Part shown: piece after piece, positions 1,659 through 9,642 of the stretch
Layout: every line of letters begins with the position of its first letter
Position numbering within the stretch: the stretch's first letter is position 1
Virus record (IMG/VR): IMGVR_UViG_2740892233_000023
Direction: 5' to 3' (one strand)
DNA from: a virus
Taxonomy: Duplodnaviria; Heunggongvirae; Uroviricota; Caudoviricetes
Length of the DNA: 11,769 nt
Translations under genes and position numbers: made by a program
The notes under the pieces: generated by a model
What the model was told of the DNA's origin: nothing
What the model saw: the letters and a program-made list of their open reading frames with translations, nothing else
Database searches by the model: none

Positions 1659-4600
1659 TTAAGAATCAGCCTGACTCGGGATCAGTTTTTGCCAGATAAC
1701 TGAAACGTATTTTGCCTGGTAACGGGCGTCATCAAGTGCATTATGGCGCTCACCTTCGAATGGAATAGCCGTTCTGGCATCGAAGTCTATGGCTTTCCCC
1801 AGCTCAACGATTGTGCGTACATCGCGATCGTTGTAGTAACGCCACGGGCAGGGGATCCCCTGCCGTTCGTATGAACGGCGCAAAATCGTGTTGTCGAAGT
1901 TGGCTCCATTTCCCCAGACCTGAACAAAAAATTCACCGGAGTTTTCGTCGATAAATTCCCGCAATTGTAACAGTGCATCATCTAACGGGATTTCATCGGT
2001 CATAATGGCAGATTGCGCTTCGCGTGATTGCTTAAGCCACCATTTAATGGTGTCCCGATCAATGACCCCGCCAGCAGTTTCCAGATCGATAGTCTTACTA
2101 AATTCCGGCCCCATATCTCCGGTTTGCGGATCGAAAAATATTGCACCTATTGAGATGATCGGGGCATCAGGATTTTTTCCCATGGTTTCAAGGTCGATCA
2201 TTAGATGGTCACACGTCCTGCNNNNNNNNNNTCCGCCAGCAGTTTCCAGATCGATAGTCTTACTAAATTCCGGTCCCATATCTCCGGTTTGCGGATCGAA
2301 AAATATTGCACCTATTGAGATAATCGGGGCATCAGGATTTTTTCCCATGGTTTCAAGGTCGATCATTAGATGGTCACACGTCCTGCTGGTGGATGTGATT
2401 TCTTGATGACCGTTCACCTTAATTGAGTGATCTGCCGTCTCGCCAGTTTCATTATCGCTATCGTGATGCTGATTGCCGTCAGTGTTCTCCTTGTGTGGAT
2501 GTTCAGCGCCTTCCATTTCCTCCGGATCATCTTCCTGAACTTCAACCTGATACTCTTCATCGAATGTTTCCTGGTATGTTGCGTCGCCCATCACCGCGCC
2601 ACAATCAGGGCAGTTGCCGCNNNNNNNNNNAATGCGATGACCGTTCACCGTAATTAAGGGATCTGCCGTCTCGCCAGTTTCACTATCGCTGGCGTGGTCC
2701 TGAGCGCTGCCAGCATTCTCCTTGTGTGGATGTTCAGCGCCTTCCATTTTCTCCGAATCGTCTTCCTGAACTTCAACCAGGTTCTTGTCATCGAATGTTT
2801 CCTGGTATGTTGCGTCGCCCATCACCGCGCCACAATCAGGGCAGTTGCCGCCGCCGGTCTGACCGCAGGCGGTGCAGACTTTTTCCGGTTCCTGTTGCGC
2901 TACTGGCTCAGGTTGTTTCGTTTCTGGCTCGTTTTGTTGCGTATTTGGGCTGTTTTGTTCCGCTTTCTGGTCGTTCTGTTCCGATTCTTGCTGGTTCTGG
3001 TTTACAGAATCGCGGGTTTCAATCCCCTTTACCCATTTCGGATCATTCGGGTCGCTAATCCCTGCAACAAATTCTCCGCGAGAGGCAGCAAGCAACTTAT
3101 CGGCGTCAGGCTGGCTGATATTGGCTGCCTGCATAATTTTGTTTACTTCGTCAGCGGTAANNNNNNNNNNACTCCTCTGACCGCAGGCGGTGCAGATCTT
3201 TTCCGGTTCCTGTTGCACTACTGGTTCAGGTTGTTTCGTTTCTGGCTCGTTTTGTTGCGTATTTGGGCTGTTCTGTTCCGCTTTCTGGTCGTTCTGTTCC
3301 GTTTCTGGCTGATTCTGGTACACAGAATCGCGGGTCTGGATCCCCTTAATCCATTTCGGATCATTCGGGTCGCTAATCCCTTCAACAAATTCTCCGCGAG
3401 AGGCAGCCAGTAATTTGTCTGCATCGACAGGATTTTGGGGCGGAATGTTTTTCCGGGCTTCATGGAGTTCTGCCCGCAGTTTCTGATATTTCGCATCAAC
3501 AGAATTTACCTGTGACTGAGCATCCAGCGGCTGCGTGTCCTGATGATGTTCAGTTGCATCCGGTTCCACTGTTTCAGCCGTTGCCTGTTCATCTGCCATT
3601 GCGCAAGATGGTTGCGGTTTTTCTTCATCATTTTCTTCTTCTTCTGTTTCCTGCTTAGCAGCCAGTTCGCGGTTAACTTCTTCCAGGATATCTTTTTCCG
3701 GTGTATGTCGTGCAGCAGTGAGAGTTTCCTTGCTGGGGTTCTCGTGATCAGTCTCCGTTAAGTAGGCGTTGATATACCCCTGAAGGCGTCCCGGGTAGTG
3801 ATAAAACTCAGGGTGAGCGCTCCGGATAAGTGCAAAAATAGCGGCGCGGGAATAGTCCAGAATACCCGGGGTTGCGCGAAGTGCTGCGGACCATTCTTTG
3901 AACGGACTTTCTCTTTTCAGGACGATTTCTTTTGCGCGACGATAAACGCTGCCCGGAATTTCATAAATATTAAAATCCATCGGAAGTGTGGCTGCTGCAA
4001 TCTCCACATCCAGCGTATCGAAGGTGTGTACTAAATTCGGATTGCGATCGGTTTTGTTCCCGCCACCGGCATTTGCACCGGAAGCCGTACGGGTGATACG
4101 CGAAACACGATTTCCTTTCATCCACTCTTTTGTCAGCAGACCCCGATCAGTGTAGTCAGCGTCCAGGTATGCCTCGAAAAAAGCAGTTATCAGTCCCAGG
4201 TCTGAATTACCGGGATTAGGGAAAACTTTGTCAGTGTCGCGTGCCAGTTTATGAAGGTCGCGAATCTCCAGCGGGTCGAGCAGCTTTGTGTTGTGGGAAA
4301 TGGCCAGGGCAGTAACAGCCGGCAGTTCTTCCGCCCGTGCTATATGTAATGCCTGAAGTTCTTCCCGTGCAACGTGCGTTACTGGTTTTTCGCTGCCGTG
4401 TTGCGCAAGCCAGCGAATGGGCAGCTCCTGACCAGAAACCGGCAGGAGCATATTCTCCTCAATCTCCGTCATGTCTTCGCCGTTGACGTTGGTATTGTCA
4501 GTACTGGCTGGTTTCTCCTGCACGGAGGGAGAGGGCGCGATAAATACCATTGTAATGCCATCTTCCCCGCCTTTTTCGTATCGGTTGCAGAATTCGGTAT

Positions 4601-4835: not shown

Positions 4836-4927
4836 TGATAAACCTCATTACAGATTTAAGGGTGAACAAATCCCTGCCATTGCTGGCATTTTTAATCCGT
4901 TGGTATGGTGTTAATATGGCTGGAGGG

Positions 4928-5116: not shown

Positions 5117-5301
5117 TGACGTTCTCCGAAAATACCAAGTTCAAGAAGAGCAATTCGGGAAAGTATGGAATTATCATTGAGCAGATAAGGCTCATATTTC
5201 CTCATATTAATGGCATCTTCAGTAAACTCCCGGTTACTGAGCAGAACACCAATATCAAAACAACCTTCAGACGTATTAACGTTTGGTAATAACGTTTCCA
5301 T
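5113..5301 (-). CDS. dicB: DicB-like cell-division inhibitor (62 aa)
   Basis: Minus-strand ORF starting at ATG 5301 with GAGGA SD 7 nt upstream. Product METLLPNVNTSEGCFDIGVLLSNREFTEDAINMRK… matches the remembered DicB family (LLPNVNTSEGCF…FTEDAIN) in length and sequence. It lies directly downstream of a DicF-like sRNA, as in the Qin dicB operon. The ORF-track GTG-start extension to 5406 is not needed. Confidence 0.75.
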   Translation of the reverse strand: METLLPNVNTSEGCFDIGVLLSNREFTEDAINMRKYEPYLLNDNSILSRIALLELGIFGERQ

Positions 5302-5470
5302 TATCGCGTCCTCAACAATGAATTTTGTGATGCGGTGCCTGGTGCCTCCAGGTGACGTTAACCAGTTAACAATTAACGCCGGATACAGAGAATCCACCCA
5401 TAACACTGTTTTTGGTTTTAACTGTTCCGCGTGCGCTCAGCCGCATTCACCACATCACAAAATTCACTTT

Positions 5471-5528
5471 AAAAAGGGCGGCAGAGCAGTCACGGAGTAA
5501 AACTGATACCGCCAAACGTCACCAGAAA
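5471..5528 (-). ncRNA. dicF: DicF-like sRNA (copy at end of contig before N-run)
   Basis: Minus-strand sequence TTTCTGGTGACGTTTGGCGGTATCAGTTTTACTCCGTGACTGCTCTGCCGCCCTTTTT matches the remembered 53-nt DicF sRNA followed by a U-run. Located upstream of dicB-like in the same orientation. Confidence 0.7.
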
Positions 5529-5554: not shown

Positions 5555-5564
5555 NNNNNNNNNN
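5555..5564. other. N10 gap; the ~116 bp before it (5439-5554) are repeated after it (5566-5681) with 3 differences
   Basis: Direct comparison of flanking sequence; both copies end at the same point (…cgttgcagcgg) before an N-run. Confidence 0.95.
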
Positions 5565-5597: not shown

Positions 5598-5655
5598 AAA
5601 AAGGGCGGCAGAGCAGCCAAGGAGTAAAACTGATACCGCCAAACGTCACCAGAAA
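5598..5655 (-). ncRNA. dicF: DicF-like sRNA, variant copy (2 substitutions, CCGUGACUG to CCUUGGCUG)
   Basis: Second copy of the DicF-like sequence on the short segment between two N-runs. It may be an allele or paralogue brought in by contig concatenation rather than a second gene in the same genome. Confidence 0.55.
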
Positions 5656-5681: not shown

Positions 5682-5691
5682 NNNNNNNNNN
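5682..5691. other. N10 gap (junction between DicF-containing segment and twin-hairpin/cassette contig)
   Basis: Seen in sequence; no overlap detected across this junction. Confidence 0.95.
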
Positions 5692-6513: not shown

Positions 6514-6523
6514 NNNNNNNNNN
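6514..6523. other. N10 gap flanked by repeated ~85-bp segment (6429-6513 vs 6777-6862)
   Basis: Direct comparison of flanking sequence. Confidence 0.95.
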
Positions 6524-6791: not shown

Positions 6792-7010
6792 TTAACGCGG
6801 GTATGTAATCATTCTGGCAATGCTTAATGCCGCTGCTTTTTCCAGATTGGTGATATCCTGCTCCAGAGCGGACAGATTTTCAGCCTGCTTAGCCCTGGCT
6901 TCATTGGCCCATTTCAGGTCCTGCGCTGCCTTAATTTTCTGGTGCATCCACTCATAAAGTTCATCATCGGTATAGTCTGGCGCGATGATGACGGGGTCTC
7001 GTTTCTGCAT
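6792..7010 (-). CDS. YdfC-like small coiled-coil protein (72 aa)
   Basis: Minus-strand ORF with AAGGAG SD 6 nt upstream of ATG at 7010. Its length and its position upstream of dicF/dicB match ydfC of the Qin dicB operon. Family call from synteny and length only. Confidence 0.6.
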   Translation of the reverse strand: MQKRDPVIIAPDYTDDELYEWMHQKIKAAQDLKWANEARAKQAENLSALEQDITNLEKAAALSIARMITYPR

Positions 7011-7082: not shown

Positions 7083-7439
7083 TTACTCGAGAGGAAATTG
7101 GTTATGAATACAATCAAGTTTTCTTGCCCAGAATGTGGTGGCTAAGTCTTTGACACATCCTTTAAGCCGCAGGGCTCTGACAGTTTCGCGGGAGCCATCT
7201 GCAAAAATTGTGGTCACCTTGTAACTGAAGATGAGTCCTCGCAGTTCGATGACGAAATCGTTGACAATATCTTCGGTGCACTCACCAGAGACTTTCTGAA
7301 GTAAAGGCGCATACCGCTTAGTTACCGCTCTGATAATTCTTACCTGTCCGGCAATGGCGCTGATATCAATATAAAGCGCCATCGCTGTTTCTTTGCTGAT
7401 CCCTGGATGCCTTCCATTCTGATGTTTGACTTCGCCCAC
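7083..7439 (-). CDS. Hypothetical 118-aa ORF (GTG start); possibly only a mirror-frame shadow of the plus-strand zinc-ribbon ORF
   Basis: Uninterrupted minus-strand ORF with GAGGA SD before the GTG. It is in exact codon register with the plus-strand ORF 7104-7304, so one of the two is likely non-coding. It is on the same strand as the operon, which favours it; the repeated motif argues for the other strand. Confidence 0.3.
   Translation of the reverse strand: MGEVKHQNGRHPGISKETAMALYIDISAIAGQVRIIRAVTKRYAPLLQKVSGECTEDIVNDFVIELRGLIFSYKVTTIFADGSRETVRALRLKGCVKDLATTFWARKLDCIHNQFPLE
7104..7304 (+). pseudogene. Zinc-ribbon-like small protein (CPECGG … CKNCGH) interrupted by an in-frame TAA after codon 13
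   Basis: ATG at 7104 with AGAGGAAA SD 9 nt upstream. Translation is MNTIKFSCPECGG-stop-VFDTSFKPQGSDSFAGAICKNCGHLVTEDESSQFDDEIVDNIFGALTRDFLK-stop. Two CxxCG knuckles sit about 20 aa apart. The stop could be AAA to TAA (a single substitution). Confidence 0.35.
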
Positions 7440-7619
7440 TGAGAAATCCTCTGTTTCCCCTTAACGCCGGGGTAGCGGAACAAAAAACCTGCTGCATAGT
7501 TAAACGTAATCCCCGCCGTCATGTTCATACGCCTCAGGCTGGCTACTTAACCCCTGACCACTGCCGGGTAACTCGAAGTATTGCCCTGCGTTCTGTGGGG
7601 CGGGGTGGGTTTATGGATA

Positions 7620-7675
7620 CAATTTACAAATTAAAATTTAACTGGTCAACATGTTTATTATTAAATTTGTAATTG
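7620..7675. promoter_or_regulatory. Imperfect inverted repeat CAATTTACAAATT … AATTTGTAATTG with central AACATGTT palindrome, upstream of higB-like
   Basis: Seen in sequence; AT-rich with a candidate -10 (TATTAT at 7656-7661). Shares the 12-mer AAATTTGTAATT with the immunity operator region at 8904-8915. Confidence 0.45.
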
Positions 7676-7717
7676 CGGGCTGTTGCATCAGTCCCAAAAT
7701 GGGACTACTATACAGTT

Positions 7718-8020
7718 ATGAAGATTATCTCAGTTAAAACACTCAGGGATTTTTGGGCGGAGAATCCTGATGCAGAACAACCGCTAAGGGCATGGGTGGA
7801 TGAGGCGGCAAAAGCTGACTGGAAAAGCCCAGCAGACATTAAGGCACAATACCGAACGGCCAGTATATTGAAAAACCGGCGCGTGGTATTCAACATAAAA
7901 GGTAATCATTACCGTTTAATTGTTGCAATTGCGTATCAGCGAGGATGGGTATTTGTTAAATTCATCGGAAACCACAAGGAATACGATGCTATTGATGCTG
8001 ATACCATCGAACTGGAGTAA
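7718..8020 (+). CDS. higB: HigB-family toxin (RelE/ParE-superfamily mRNA interferase), ~100 aa
   Basis: ORF from ATG 7718 with motif …VFNIKGNHYRLIVAIAYQRGWVFVKFIGNHKEYD… resembling HigB toxins. It lies immediately upstream of an HTH antitoxin-like gene (toxin-first order, typical of higBA). No clear SD; the TTG at 7673 is an alternative start. Confidence 0.75.
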   Translation: MKIISVKTLRDFWAENPDAEQPLRAWVDEAAKADWKSPADIKAQYRTASILKNRRVVFNIKGNHYRLIVAIAYQRGWVFVKFIGNHKEYDAIDADTIELE

Positions 8021-8022
8021 GC

Positions 8023-8382
8023 ATGAACATCAAACCTATTCGTACAGAGCAAGATTATGAAGCCGCGTTGCGTGCTGTTGAACCCATGTTCGACAATGAG
8101 CCCGAAATTGACACGCCTGAGGGGGATTTTTTTGAGGTGATGTGTTTGCTAATAGAGGAATATGAAAAAAAACATTATCCCATTGAGCCACCATCCCCAA
8201 TTGAAGCTATAAGATTTCGCATGGAACAGCAGGGGCTGACTGTGAAAGATTTGGAACCCGCAATTGGGAAAAAAAATCGGGTTTATGAGGTGTTGAATGG
8301 TACCAGAAGCCTTACGTTACCAATGATTCGCCGTCTTCATAATCAATTTGGTATCCCCCTGGAAAGCCTGGTTGGATTATAA
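8023..8382 (+). CDS. higA: HigA-family antitoxin (HTH, XRE-type), 119 aa
   Basis: ATG 2 nt after the higB-like stop, with GGAG SD. C-terminal HTH …GLTVKDLEPAIGKKNRVYEVLNGTRSLTLPMIRRLHNQFGI… resembles HigA antitoxins. Confidence 0.75.
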   Translation: MNIKPIRTEQDYEAALRAVEPMFDNEPEIDTPEGDFFEVMCLLIEEYEKKHYPIEPPSPIEAIRFRMEQQGLTVKDLEPAIGKKNRVYEVLNGTRSLTLPMIRRLHNQFGIPLESLVGL

Positions 8383-8398
8383 AATCTGCTAGTCATTT

Positions 8399-8447
8399 GC
8401 CTGATGCTCGTTCCAGAAAAGGAATGCATCAGGCAGTTTTGTTTTTC
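8399..8447 (+). terminator. Intrinsic terminator for the higBA-like transcript (overlaps the 3' end of the repressor gene)
   Basis: Stem GCCTGATGC / GCATCAGGC with inner TTCC/GGAA stem and AGAAAA loop, followed by AGTTTTGTTTTT on the plus strand. Confidence 0.55.
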
Positions 8448-8821
8448 TGCCGCAGTAACTCTTCAAGTTTCCGTTTATAGAAATCGCGTTTTTGCTCCAT
8501 ATCACGAATGATCTGCTCTGCGTCGCTTTGAGGTAACTCATCTAAAAGCGATATGATTTTTCGTTGTTGTTCTGTAAGTTGCGGTTGGTTGTCATTACTG
8601 GATACAGCCATTTTATCGCCGAGAGTTTCTTCTTCCATAAAGAACCAATGGACGGGATGTTGTGAGAGCTCTGCTAATTTTTCCAGTTTATCCATTCTTG
8701 GCATCACGCCTTTCAACCAACCTTGCACGGATTGGGGTTTTACACCAAGACGTCTTCCCAGCTCTGACTGGTTTATATTCAATTCCTGCAACACCTGCTG
8801 AAGGCGTTTTACAAAGATCAT
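8429..8821 (-). CDS. Prophage repressor, DicA/RacR-like (N-terminal HTH, no S24 peptidase domain)
   Basis: Minus-strand ORF; likely start is ATG at 8819-8821 with GAGGGG SD. HTH …NQSELGRRLGVKPQSVQGWLKG… and a C-terminal region resembling the DicA C-terminus (…LPQSDAEQIIRDMEQKRDFYKRKLEELL…). Divergent from a Cro-like gene. Confidence 0.8.
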   Translation of the reverse strand: MIFVKRLQQVLQELNINQSELGRRLGVKPQSVQGWLKGVMPRMDKLEKLAELSQHPVHWFFMEEETLGDKMAVSSNDNQPQLTEQQRKIISLLDELPQSDAEQIIRDMEQKRDFYKRKLEELLRQKNKTA

Positions 8822-8874
8822 CACCACCCCTCGTAAACTAGTTCCGCGATCCTACAGAAAAAATTGATAAGTGG

Positions 8875-8914
8875 CATTACAAATAGAAGTTGAAATTTAA
8901 ATTTAAATTTGTAA
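8875..8914. promoter_or_regulatory. Operator-like perfect 9-bp inverted repeat ATTACAAAT … ATTTGTAAT (22-bp spacer) in the divergent repressor/cro intergenic region
   Basis: Seen in sequence; it flanks a candidate promoter (TTGAAA at 8890-8895 with an AT-rich -10) and includes TTTAAATTTAAATTT direct repeats. Confidence 0.5.
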
Positions 8915-8947
8915 TTATCGGTGTCATCGTAAAGTTCGGAGGGAAAC

Positions 8948-9208
8948 ATGCAAAAAAGTACTCAAGTGAAAATCCTGTCAATAATGAGCCAATCAGAATT
9001 AGGGCGTCGTCTTGGTAAAACACCGCAAACCATAAGTGGGTGGTTTAAAAAACGAGTGCCAGCGGAGGAGGTTATACCAGCATGTGAGGCGCTTGACTGG
9101 GGAGTAACTCCGCATGAATTGCGCCCTGATAAATACCCTAATCCAACCGATGGTTTACCTGTTGAGTATCAGGCTAACGCACAAGCAGCGGCGGGAGTTG
9201 ATTCATGA
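8948..9208 (+). CDS. Cro-like HTH regulator (YdaS family)
   Basis: 86-aa ORF with GGAGGG SD 5 nt upstream. HTH …SQSELGRRLGKTPQTISGWFKK… closely parallels the repressor HTH. Divergent from the repressor; YdaT-like gene follows with ATGA overlap. Confidence 0.8.
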   Translation: MQKSTQVKILSIMSQSELGRRLGKTPQTISGWFKKRVPAEEVIPACEALDWGVTPHELRPDKYPNPTDGLPVEYQANAQAAAGVDS

Positions 9209-9642
9209 AAATCAAGCATGAGCACATCCGCATGGCGATGAATGCGTGGCTGCTTTATCCGAGGGTAGGGCGCAAAAAAATCGCTGATGATATAGCGACA
9301 GCATATTTTGAGCTTGAAATGACTTATCCACCAATGCATGACACCTCTACGACAGAGGGTATTGGATTGAACATACAAAATATTTTTCGCTGGCTTGAAA
9401 AGGATACGCCTGATGCTGTTGAAAAAATTCAGGCACTAATTCCAGCTATCCTGACTGTTCTTCCGCGTGAACTGCGTTATCACCTCAGTATTTTTGACAC
9501 TGTTGAGCGCCGTGCATTACTGGCGGCCCAGGAAGCGTTGAGCACGGCAATTGATGCGCATGATGATGCAGTCCAGGCAGTTTACCGGAAAGCGTATTTC
9601 AGCGACGGCGGGTCATCCGGCGAGTCTGTTGTGGTGCATTGA
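9205..9642 (+). CDS. YdaT-family protein (CII-like regulator of Rac-type prophages)
   Basis: 145-aa ORF starting MKIKHEHI…, translationally coupled to the ydaS-like gene. Family call from memory and synteny. Confidence 0.75.
   Translation: MKIKHEHIRMAMNAWLLYPRVGRKKIADDIATAYFELEMTYPPMHDTSTTEGIGLNIQNIFRWLEKDTPDAVEKIQALIPAILTVLPRELRYHLSIFDTVERRALLAAQEALSTAIDAHDDAVQAVYRKAYFSDGGSSGESVVVH

What the first reader, a model, noticed from the sequence alone, without database searches (positions are those of the whole stretch)
7620..8915. Shared 12-mer operator-like motif links the higBA-like promoter to the immunity operator
The higB-upstream palindrome and the repressor/cro intergenic operator both contain AAATTTGTAATT (7663-7674 and 8904-8915), and both have an inverted partner containing ACAAAT. 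A 12-bp exact match between two short regulatory regions is unlikely by chance (of order 1e-3 for these region sizes, before allowing for AT-richness). It suggests that the DicA-like repressor or the Cro-like protein (which share the SELGRRLG…PQ…GW HTH) also binds the higBA-like promoter, or that HigA binds the immunity operator, coupling toxin-antitoxin expression to the lysogenic switch.
Basis: seen in the sequence. Interest (0 to 1): 0.55.

Follow-up and report, generated by a model that had tools for sequence, protein, structure and literature searches.

The report
Prophage left and right operators match
The repeated AT-rich motif is the ordinary pair of left (OL) and right (OR) operator sets of a lambda-like prophage repressor in pathogenic E. 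coli. The higBA toxin-antitoxin genes are a passenger between them with their own separate promoter and operator.

Summary
The repeat is real. It extends to an exact 14-mer, TTAAATTTGTAATT, which shuffles of the two regions reach about 1.5 times in 10,000.

It does not link a higBA promoter to the immunity operator. The 7621-7675 region is the prophage's early-left promoter and operator (PL/OL).
- It abuts a conserved leader that feeds the leftward ydfC-DicF-dicB-exonuclease-xis-int operon.
- It holds a leftward promoter, TTGACC-17-TAAATT, that is a near twin of the candidate cro promoter PR.
- Both of its arms are kept in Sodalis, Serratia, Arsenophonus and Phlomobacter prophages that have a related repressor but no higBA.

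Stand-alone higBA cassettes lack the AT-rich motif. They carry AGTCCCA-N3-TGGGACT palindromes instead. The window keeps one of these (7690-7706) inside its own promoter.

This is the known lambdoid layout, shown experimentally for Qin (DicA, dicBp) and CP-933P (PaaR2, YdaS, PL933P). The repressor and Cro-like protein probably do bind upstream of higB, but because that DNA is OL. Nothing supports HigA binding the immunity operator.

One open point remains: the distal OL site ends 7 bp before the higB -35, so some crosstalk is possible. Interest is low.

The parts
7621..7649 (-). Candidate PL, the early-left promoter and the equivalent of dicBp. On the minus strand the -35 is TTGACC (7649-7644), the spacer is 17 nt and the -10 is TAAATT (7626-7621). 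The proximal OL operator (AATTTACAAATTAAAATTTAA, 7621-7641) covers the spacer and the -10.
   Evidence: Promoter scan. 17/18 complementary to the PR operator stretch 8897-8914. Same position relative to the conserved leader as PL933P in phage Evi and as dicBp in Qin. Conserved in E. coli, Salmonella, Sodalis, Serratia, Arsenophonus and Phlomobacter.
7661..7675 (+). Distal OL operator, TTAAATTTGTAATTG. It lies upstream of the PL -35 and ends 7 bp before the higB -35.
   Evidence: An equivalent site at the same place occurs in prophages without higBA: Sodalis AAAATTGCAGAT, and Arsenophonus and Phlomobacter TTTAATTTGTAATTAT.
7683..7711 (+). The higBA promoter itself: -35 TTGCAT (7683-7688), candidate HigA operator palindrome AGTCCCAaaaTGGGACT (7690-7706), -10 TACTAT (7706-7711). 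The -10 ends 6 nt before the higB ATG and there is no Shine-Dalgarno sequence, so the mRNA is probably leaderless.
   Evidence: Aligns with stand-alone higBA cassettes from Klebsiella, Plesiomonas and other E. coli, which carry the same palindrome twice. It is the only exact TCCCA-N3-TGGGA in the window.
7718..8020 (+). higB toxin gene (100 aa)
   Evidence: Pfam PF09907 HigB_toxin, E 4.8e-33. RefSeq annotation.
8023..8382 (+). higA antitoxin gene (119 aa, helix-turn-helix)
   Evidence: Pfam HTH_3. Matches E. coli K-12 and Shigella HigA structures 5ifg and 5ycl, E about 3e-9.
8397..8436 (+). Stable hairpin followed by a T-rich run. Probable terminator of higBA. It overlaps the stop codon of the convergent repressor gene.
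   Evidence: Fold -23.5 kcal/mol, z -3.6, 0 of 200 shuffles as stable.
8429..8821 (-). CI/DicA-like repressor (130 aa). N-terminal helix-turn-helix, no S24 peptidase domain.
   Evidence: Pfam HTH_3. Full-length but weak similarity to DicA (22% identity; NCBIfam DicA 49.9 bits against a cut-off of 101). The recognition-helix segment is invariant in relatives down to 48% identity.
8875..8918 (.). OR: three TTGYAAW-like sites with start-to-start spacing of 13 and 19 nt. Site A is CATTACAAATAG (8875-8886). Site B is the PR -35, TTGAAA (8890-8895).
   Evidence: The same three sites at the same spacing occur in nine relatives from four or more genera.
8900..8927 (-). Candidate promoter for the repressor gene (PRM-like): ATGACA-16-TAAATT on the minus strand, overlapping PR.
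   Evidence: Promoter scan only. Not otherwise supported.
8948..9208 (+). Cro-like (YdaS family) gene
   Evidence: Pfam YdaS_toxin and HTH_3. PHROG transcriptional repressor.
9205..9642 (+). CII-like (YdaT family) gene
   Evidence: Pfam YdaT_toxin. PHROG 163, CII-like activator.
7440..7611 (-). Conserved leader of the PL transcript. It marks the left edge of the immunity-specific module.
   Evidence: About 3000 of the 5426 E. coli genomes had a match to the 7440-9210 query, but only 148 covered most of it. The partial matches to phages with other immunity types were all to this leader, at 88-93% identity. Also present, more diverged, in Sodalis, Arsenophonus and Phlomobacter.

Best explanation
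The window is the early region of a lambdoid prophage of the Qin/Rac/CP-933P type, found in enterohaemorrhagic E. coli O26, O103, O111 and O45. The two AT-rich regions are its left and right operator sets. OR (8875-8918) lies between the divergent repressor and cro-like genes. OL (7621-7675) lies on the leftward early promoter PL, which drives the leader, a PHROG 21318 gene, ydfC, DicF, dicB, the exonuclease gene, xis and int. The same repressor dimers, and later the Cro-like protein, recognise a WTTGYAR(W)T core at both places. That is why the motif is shared. PL and PR are near-twin promoters: TTGAMM at -35, an A/T-rich spacer, and TTTGTAA at the -10. Each also has a further inverted site upstream of its -35, placed one helical turn (11 bp) further out at OL than at OR. 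The higBA cassette is a passenger inserted between OL and the 3' end of the repressor gene, in the slot that rexAB occupies in lambda and paaA2-parE2 in CP-933P. It is transcribed towards the repressor gene from its own promoter (TTGCAT-17-TACTAT), whose spacer holds the HigA-type palindrome AGTCCCA-N3-TGGGACT. Shown here: the sequences, their positions, their conservation, and how they sort with or without higBA. Inferred: that the repressor and the Cro-like protein bind these sites, that the named hexamers are the active promoters, and that HigA binds the GC-containing palindrome.
For: 1. Position. The genes left of 7620 are the leftward dicB-type operon (Rfam DicF; RefSeq ydfC, dicB, exonuclease and integrase; ydfA and ydfB in close relatives). 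The only consensus-like leftward promoter in 7400-7720 is TTGACC-17-TAAATT at 7649-7621.
2. Homologous position to experimentally defined promoters. Qin dicBp reads TTGACC-17-TAATCT with the DicA operator in its spacer. DicA represses it 22-fold, and the operator sets at dicA-dicC and at dicBp are described as equivalents of lambda OR and OL (PMC10448788). The primers used to clone PL933P (PMC8630535 supplement) map in phage Evi to the DNA that directly abuts the same conserved leader. PaaR2 and YdaS repress that promoter about 100-fold. The distance from the -10 to the leader motif AACCCACCCC is 9 nt in both Evi and the window.
3. 7624-7641 is 17/18 complementary to the PR operator stretch.
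4. The region from OL to cro is inherited as one block. The same 148 of 5426 E. coli genomes hit with the higBA half and with the repressor/cro half, and all 23 IMG/VR loci carry both. The leader to the left and ydaT to the right vary independently.
5. Repressor relatives at 52-71% identity that lack higBA keep both OL arms. In Phlomobacter the PL operon starts with an N-peptide gene.
6. higBA cassettes outside prophages have no AT-rich motif and carry their own palindromes.
7. The recognition-helix segment of the repressor is invariant across all relatives. This fits the conserved operator core.
Against: No binding or transcription data exist for this prophage. Promoters and operators are assigned by consensus, position and conservation only. 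The exact dimer-binding unit is not resolved: the sites are not clean palindromes, and the inverted arms are 31 bp apart at OR and 37 bp apart at OL. The PRM assignment rests on one consensus match. Among close relatives, with repressor identity of 93% or more, no higBA-free version was found. The 'without higBA' evidence therefore comes from more distant relatives at 52-71% identity.
Confidence: 0.85

Rival explanations
1. The prophage repressor or the Cro-like protein, bound at the distal OL site (7661-7675), also controls the higBA promoter, so toxin-antitoxin expression follows the lysogenic switch.
For: The distal OL site ends 7 bp upstream of the higB -35. That is the place where stand-alone cassettes carry their second, distal HigA palindrome. 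The 9-nt distance between the TTGTARW core and the -35 is the same in the E. coli and Salmonella versions even though the intervening bases differ. A toxin-antitoxin system wired into a prophage immunity switch has a precedent in paaR2-paaA2-parE2 (PMC8630535).
Against: The site exists at the same place in prophages without higBA, so higBA is not needed to explain it. The cassette keeps a complete promoter and a proximal autoregulatory palindrome. The rightward hexamers around 7646-7674 lack either the A at position 2 or the T at position 6 of the -10, and the scan did not list them. Conserved spacing over this modest divergence is weak evidence.
Confidence: 0.18
2. The AT-rich palindrome is the higBA operator, and HigA also binds the immunity operator OR.
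For: Only the shared motif itself, plus the fact that HigA has a helix-turn-helix.
Against: Six diverged higBA cassettes share AGTCCCA-N3-TGGGACT, not the AT-rich motif. K-12 higBA has the same 7-N3-7 layout with different bases, and it is autoregulated by HigA (PMC2814082). OR contains no such palindrome. The HigA helix-turn-helix is unrelated in sequence to the SELGRRLG...GW segment of the repressor and Cro-like proteins.
Confidence: 0.04
3. A chance match between two AT-rich, low-complexity intergenic regions.
For: Both regions are 30-34% GC and rich in AAATTT-type repeats. Relaxed versions of the motif are not enriched across the whole window.
Against: A shared 14-mer arises in 0.015% of dinucleotide-preserving shuffles. 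The sites sit at conserved positions in relatives from six genera.
Confidence: 0.02
4. The shared bases are only promoter elements (-10 and spacer) of twin promoters and are not protein-binding operators.
For: Site C overlaps the PR extended -10, site B is the PR -35, and the proximal OL arm overlaps the PL -10.
Against: The copies at 7661-7675 and 8875-8886 lie upstream of the -35 elements, where no usable promoter is found, yet they are conserved. In the experimentally studied homologues the operators do overlap the promoter hexamers (PMC8630535).
Confidence: 0.06

Closest known systems
CP-933P / Sp12 immunity region of E. coli O157:H7 (PaaR2 = CI, YdaS = Cro, YdaT = CII, PL933P with OL1-3; toxin-antitoxin pair paaA2-parE2 inside the immunity region) - PMC8630535
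   Same: The gene order is the same: PL/OL, toxin-antitoxin cargo, short non-cleavable helix-turn-helix repressor, OR, ydaS-like gene, ydaT-like gene, replication genes. OL and OR share their repeats. PL abuts the same conserved leader.
   Different: The operator sequence differs (GTTTAGTAA repeats there, WTTGYARWT here). There the toxin-antitoxin pair is co-transcribed with the repressor and its antitoxin has no DNA-binding domain. Here higBA is convergent to the repressor, has its own promoter, and has an antitoxin with a helix-turn-helix.
Qin cryptic prophage of E. coli K-12: DicA/DicC switch and dicBp - PMC10448788 and the work it cites
   Same: Leftward early operon ydfABC-dicF-dicB. PL-equivalent promoter TTGACC-17-TAATCT carrying an operator shared with the dicA-dicC intergenic region. 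The repressor has the same length and architecture.
   Different: The repressor is only 22% identical and scores below the NCBIfam DicA cut-off. The operators are unrelated in sequence (TGTTAGTnATGACTAACA type). Qin has no cargo between dicA and dicBp, and most of the conserved leader is missing.
Phage lambda OL/OR with rexAB between OL and cI (textbook knowledge)
   Same: Two operator sets for one repressor and one Cro. Passenger genes sit between OL and the repressor gene. The immunity module runs from OL to cro.
   Different: The repressor here lacks the RecA-cleavable C-terminal domain. The cargo is on the opposite strand with its own promoter. OL and OR are 1.25 kb apart.
HigBA type II toxin-antitoxin system of E. 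coli K-12 (ygjN-ygjM; PF09907 toxin, HTH_3 antitoxin) - PMC2814082; PDB 5ifg
   Same: Toxin-first gene order, the same Pfam families, and a promoter with 7-N3-7 palindromes.
   Different: The palindrome bases differ (GTTGCCA-N3-TGGCAAC in K-12). The prophage copy has lost the distal palindrome.

Membership tests
Lambdoid immunity region with paired OL/OR operators (CI/Cro, DicA/DicC, PaaR2/YdaS type) | Divergent repressor and cro-like genes with repeated operator sites overlapping divergent promoters in the intergenic region | tested here: met
   Repressor 8429-8821 (-) and cro-like gene 8948-9208 (+). Three TTGYAAW sites with 13/19 spacing, conserved in nine relatives. PR-like and PRM-like hexamers present.
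Lambdoid immunity region with paired OL/OR operators (CI/Cro, DicA/DicC, PaaR2/YdaS type) | A second operator set with the same motif on the early-left promoter, beyond the 3' end of the repressor gene | tested here: met
   7621-7675: leftward TTGACC-17-TAAATT, 17/18 match to the PR operator, exact 14-mer shared with OR, and the same position relative to the conserved leader as PL933P and dicBp.
Lambdoid immunity region with paired OL/OR operators (CI/Cro, DicA/DicC, PaaR2/YdaS type) | Early-left operon (kil/dicB, recombination genes, xis, int) downstream of PL, and CII-like and replication genes downstream of cro | tested here: met
   DicF, dicB, ydfC, exonuclease, DUF4224 xis-like gene and integrase to the left. 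YdaT/CII-like, DUF1376 and replication protein P genes to the right.
Lambdoid immunity region with paired OL/OR operators (CI/Cro, DicA/DicC, PaaR2/YdaS type) | OL, repressor, OR and cro inherited together as one exchangeable module | tested here: met
   The same 148 genomes hit with both halves. All 23 IMG/VR loci carry both. The flanks are mosaic.
Lambdoid immunity region with paired OL/OR operators (CI/Cro, DicA/DicC, PaaR2/YdaS type) | Repressor and Cro physically bind both operator sets and repress PL and PR | not testable with these tools
   Needs gel shifts, footprinting or reporter fusions. Only shown for the homologues Qin and CP-933P.
DicA family (NCBIfam NF007257) | Score above the curated cut-off of the DicA model | tested here: not met
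   49.9 bits against a cut-off of 101. 22% identity to K-12 DicA over the full length. It is DicA-like in architecture, not a DicA family member.
HigBA type II toxin-antitoxin system (PF09907 toxin) | HigB_toxin domain protein followed by a helix-turn-helix antitoxin in one operon, toxin first | tested here: met
   PF09907, E 4.8e-33. HTH_3. HigA matches PDB 5ifg and 5ycl. The two genes are 2 nt apart.
HigBA type II toxin-antitoxin system (PF09907 toxin) | Own promoter with a palindromic operator for autoregulation by the antitoxin | tested here: inconclusive
   The conserved palindrome AGTCCCA-N3-TGGGACT sits between the -35 and -10 in six cassettes. Binding by HigA was not tested.
Three-component toxin-antitoxin system under a prophage repressor (paaR2-paaA2-parE2 type) | Toxin-antitoxin genes co-transcribed with the repressor, and an antitoxin without a DNA-binding domain | tested here: not met
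   higBA is on the opposite strand, convergent to the repressor. It has its own promoter, and HigA has a helix-turn-helix.

The most novel reading that the evidence does not exclude
When the higBA cassette was captured, its distal HigA operator was replaced by the distal OL site of the prophage. That site now sits 7 bp upstream of the higB -35, at a spacing kept in Salmonella. Occupancy of OL by the repressor, by the Cro-like protein or by an OL-OR loop would then modulate higBA transcription. Conversely, higBA transcription runs head-on into the repressor gene. The toxin-antitoxin system and the lysogenic switch would in that case be mechanistically coupled.
Probability: 0.15. Interest if true: 0.45.

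Novelty: new member of a known kind. Interest (0 to 1): 0.2.

Why it matters
It matters modestly. The analysis assigns candidate operators (core WTTGYARWT), PL, PR and the module boundaries to an uncharacterised immunity type. That type is carried by 148 of 5426 complete E. coli genomes; the strains listed include serotypes O26, O103, O111 and O45. Relatives occur in Salmonella, Sodalis, Serratia, Arsenophonus and Phlomobacter.

It adds a second example, after paaA2-parE2 in CP-933P, of a toxin-antitoxin pair lodged inside a prophage immunity module. It also shows that the slot between the repressor gene and OL takes variable cargo.

It corrects a tempting misreading. A motif shared between a 'toxin-antitoxin promoter' and an immunity operator needs no cross-regulation model when the first region is simply OL.

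Tried and rejected
- I looked for close relatives of this repressor without higBA. E. coli complete genomes and IMG/VR gave none at 93% identity or more, so I had to use relatives at 52-74% identity.
- S. enterica diarizonae (L035/L036, phospholipase-D-family cargo) and serovar Javiana (L045/L046, PaaA2-like plus TM2 cargo) did not give a clean PL/OL next to a recognisable leader. I did not use them as evidence either way.
- A rightward, PR-like promoter using the 7663-7674 copy as its -10 was rejected. The possible hexamers (TGTAAT, GTAATT, AATTGC) lack the A at position 2 or the T at position 6, and the -35 at PR-like spacing is AACATG.
- The conserved leader was tested as a structured RNA. 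Its fold is no more stable than shuffles (z +0.9) and it has no Rfam match.
- A 62-codon ORF in the leader (7340-7528) was rejected as a gene, because relatives carry 2-nt indels inside it.
- Whole-window enrichment of relaxed motifs was not significant. The case therefore rests on position and conservation, not on counts.
- A PDB sequence search for the repressor gave only a weak helix-turn-helix hit.
- I did not run structure prediction, fold search, or the metagenome and GTDB scans. They would not bear on the question.
Full report
**What the window is.** From 6524 to the end, the window is 99.7% identical and colinear with a prophage of E. coli O26:H11 strain 11368. ORFs, Pfam, PHROGs, Rfam and the RefSeq annotation give this layout:
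- integrase (20-1315, -), xis-like gene (1335-1586, -) and exonuclease gene (-)
- DUF1482 gene, dicB, DicF sRNA and ydfC (6792-7010, -)
- a PHROG 21318 gene (7083-7382, -)
- a conserved non-coding stretch (7440-7611) and an AT-rich stretch (7612-7717)
- higB (7718-8020, +) and higA (8023-8382, +)
- a 130-aa helix-turn-helix repressor (8429-8821, -)
- a 126-bp AT-rich intergenic region
- a YdaS/Cro-like gene (8948-9208, +), a YdaT/CII-like gene (9205-9642, +) and replication genes

. This is the early region of a lambdoid prophage of the Qin/Rac/CP-933P kind.

**The observation.** The exact match is really a 14-mer, TTAAATTTGTAATT (7661-7674 and 8903-8916). I shuffled the two intergenic regions 20,000 times, preserving dinucleotide content. 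A shared word of 12 or more appeared in 0.48% of trials and of 14 or more in 0.015%. Both inverted partners containing ACAAAT exist.

**What the region upstream of higB is.** The leftward dicB-type operon needs a promoter to the right of its leader. The only consensus-like leftward promoter in 7400-7720 is TTGACC-17-TAAATT at 7649-7621. Read on its own strand it is a near twin of the cro promoter:
- PL: TTGACCAGTTAAATTTTAATTTGTAAATT
- PR: TTGAAATTTAAATTTAAATTTGTAATTAT

The 7440-7611 stretch just downstream of it is shared with prophages and phages of other immunity types. About 3000 of the 5426 E. coli genomes matched the 7440-9210 query, but only 148 covered most of it, and the partial phage matches were to this leader.

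Two homologous positions have been studied experimentally.
- In K-12 Qin, the promoter next to the remnant of the same leader is dicBp, TTGACC-17-TAATCT, with a DicA operator (TGTTAGTCATGGCTAATC) in its spacer. That operator shares ATGACTAACA with the dicA-dicC intergenic operator. DicA represses dicBp 22-fold, and the literature describes the two operator sets as equivalents of lambda OR and OL (PMC10448788).
- In CP-933P, PaaR2 (CI-like) and YdaS (Cro-like) repress a promoter called PL933P about 100-fold. It has -35 and -10 elements identical to PR and three OL sites (PMC8630535). The primers used to clone PL933P map in phage Evi to 2678-2795 of locus L005, directly abutting the same conserved leader, with the reporter-proximal end at the leader. 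The distance from the -10 to the leader motif AACCCACCCC is 9 nt in both Evi and the window.

So 7621-7675 sits exactly where PL/OL sits in the characterised relatives.

**Sorting test.** If the AT-rich arms belonged to higBA, they should travel with higBA. If they are OL, they should travel with the repressor.
- Close relatives cannot separate the two ideas. Every genome or viral contig with this repressor at 93% identity or more also has higBA.
- More distant relatives can. Repressor homologues in Sodalis (71%), Serratia (58%), Arsenophonus (52%) and Phlomobacter (54%) have no higBA, yet they keep both arms next to the same leader.
- The Arsenophonus OL reads GGAATATAATCTACAAATTAAAATTTAAACTGTCAACATGATTTATAATTTAATTTGTAATTAT.
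- In one Phlomobacter contig the operon fed by this promoter begins with an N-peptide antiterminator gene, and a boxA-like CGCTCTTTAAC lies in the leader.
- Conversely, higBA cassettes with HigB 83-88% identical, in a Klebsiella chromosome, a plasmid-like Plesiomonas contig and another E. coli context, have no AT-rich motif at all.

**The regulatory DNA of higBA itself.** Those stand-alone cassettes carry two copies of AGTCCCA-N3-TGGGACT. One lies upstream of the -35 and one lies between the -35 and the -10. The window and the Salmonella prophage version keep only the proximal copy (7690-7706), inside TTGCAT(7683-7688)-17-TACTAT(7706-7711). The alignment breaks just upstream of the -35, where OL begins. 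K-12 higBA has the same 7-N3-7 layout with different bases and is autoregulated by HigA (PMC2814082). No such palindrome exists in OR.

**OR anatomy.** In all relatives OR has three TTGYAAW-like sites with start-to-start spacing of 13 and 19 nt. The middle site is the PR -35, and the right site overlaps an extended -10 (TGTAATTAT). In PL's own orientation, OL has the same layout as PR plus the upstream inverted site, but that site lies 11 bp (one helical turn) further out. The core-to-core distance is 43 nt at OL and 32 nt at OR (sequence). The repressor segment QSELGRRLGVKPQSVQGWLKGV is invariant from E. coli to Arsenophonus. This fits the conserved operator core.

**Verdict.** The shared motif is the expected signature of one repressor/Cro pair acting at OL and OR. 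higBA is cargo in the slot between OL and the repressor gene. In relatives that slot holds other cargo:
- a PaaA2-like gene plus a TM2 gene
- a phospholipase-D-family gene
- two small genes
- or nothing

. Nothing supports HigA acting on the immunity operator.

One point cannot be excluded. The distal OL site ends 7 bp before the higB -35, at the place where stand-alone cassettes have their distal palindrome. The arrangement is convergent with the repressor gene, and a strong hairpin (8397-8436) overlaps the repressor's stop codon. Some crosstalk could follow from either feature.

**Novelty.** This is a new member of a known kind: an uncharacterised immunity type and a new toxin-antitoxin passenger in an established architecture.

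Noticed in passing
window 7440-7611 (minus strand); also L005 2501-2674, L032, L051-L053: A leader of about 170 nt directly downstream of PL is conserved at 88-97% among E. coli prophages and phages of different immunity types. Its 5' part is still recognisable in Sodalis, Arsenophonus and Phlomobacter. It has no Rfam match and no unusual folding energy, and an apparent 62-codon ORF in it is broken by indels in relatives. Its function is unknown.
   Followed up: partly
window 2222-2231, 2621-2630, 3161-3170, 5555-5564, 5682-5691, 6514-6523: Six runs of 10 N are flanked by duplicated sequence, which looks like scaffold joins. They inflate the exonuclease ORF to 1058 aa (the O26 genome annotates a 2451-bp gene). 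They also probably create the second DicF copy (5476-5527 and 5603-5654). Left of about 4840 the window is only 87-89% identical to O26 11368.
   Followed up: partly
window 7706-7720: The higB mRNA is probably leaderless. The -10 TACTAT ends 6 nt before the ATG and there is no Shine-Dalgarno sequence. The same 6-7 nt geometry is seen in the Klebsiella, Plesiomonas and Salmonella cassettes, while one E. coli cassette (L041) has a leader with AAGGA.
   Followed up: partly
window 8397-8436: A very stable hairpin (-23.5 kcal/mol, z -3.6) followed by a T-run on the + strand overlaps the stop codon of the convergent repressor gene. It looks like a terminator for higBA but not for the repressor transcript, which may read antisense into higA.
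   Followed up: partly
L030, L032, L035, L045, L049, L051 (between the repressor gene and OL): The slot between the repressor gene and OL holds different cargo in relatives: higBA, a PaaA2-like antitoxin plus a TM2-domain gene, a 424-aa phospholipase-D-family gene, two small co-oriented genes, or nothing. It appears to be a hotspot for passenger or defence genes.
   Followed up: partly
window 4846-4857 (minus strand): AAATCTGTAATG is a two-mismatch copy of the motif that resembles the ATCTGTAAT variant of OR site C in relatives. It lies just upstream of the exonuclease gene start. It is within chance expectation (2.5 such hits expected).
   Followed up: no
L044 1180-1240 (E. coli K-12 higB upstream): The K-12 higBA promoter has CCGTTGCCAatcTGGCAACGG and a second, partial copy. 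This is the same 7-N3-7 palindrome layout as here but with different bases, which suggests operator specificity diverges within the family.
   Followed up: no
window 5269-5478 (minus strand): An STnc100-like match that is below the Rfam threshold (38.7 bits against a gathering score of 47) lies next to DicF.
   Followed up: no
L053 1470-1817 and its leader: In the Phlomobacter phage with the same OL, the first PL gene is an N-peptide antiterminator, with a boxA-like CGCTCTTTAAC in the leader. The window has no recognisable N gene. How its early-left operon gets past terminators is open.
   Followed up: no
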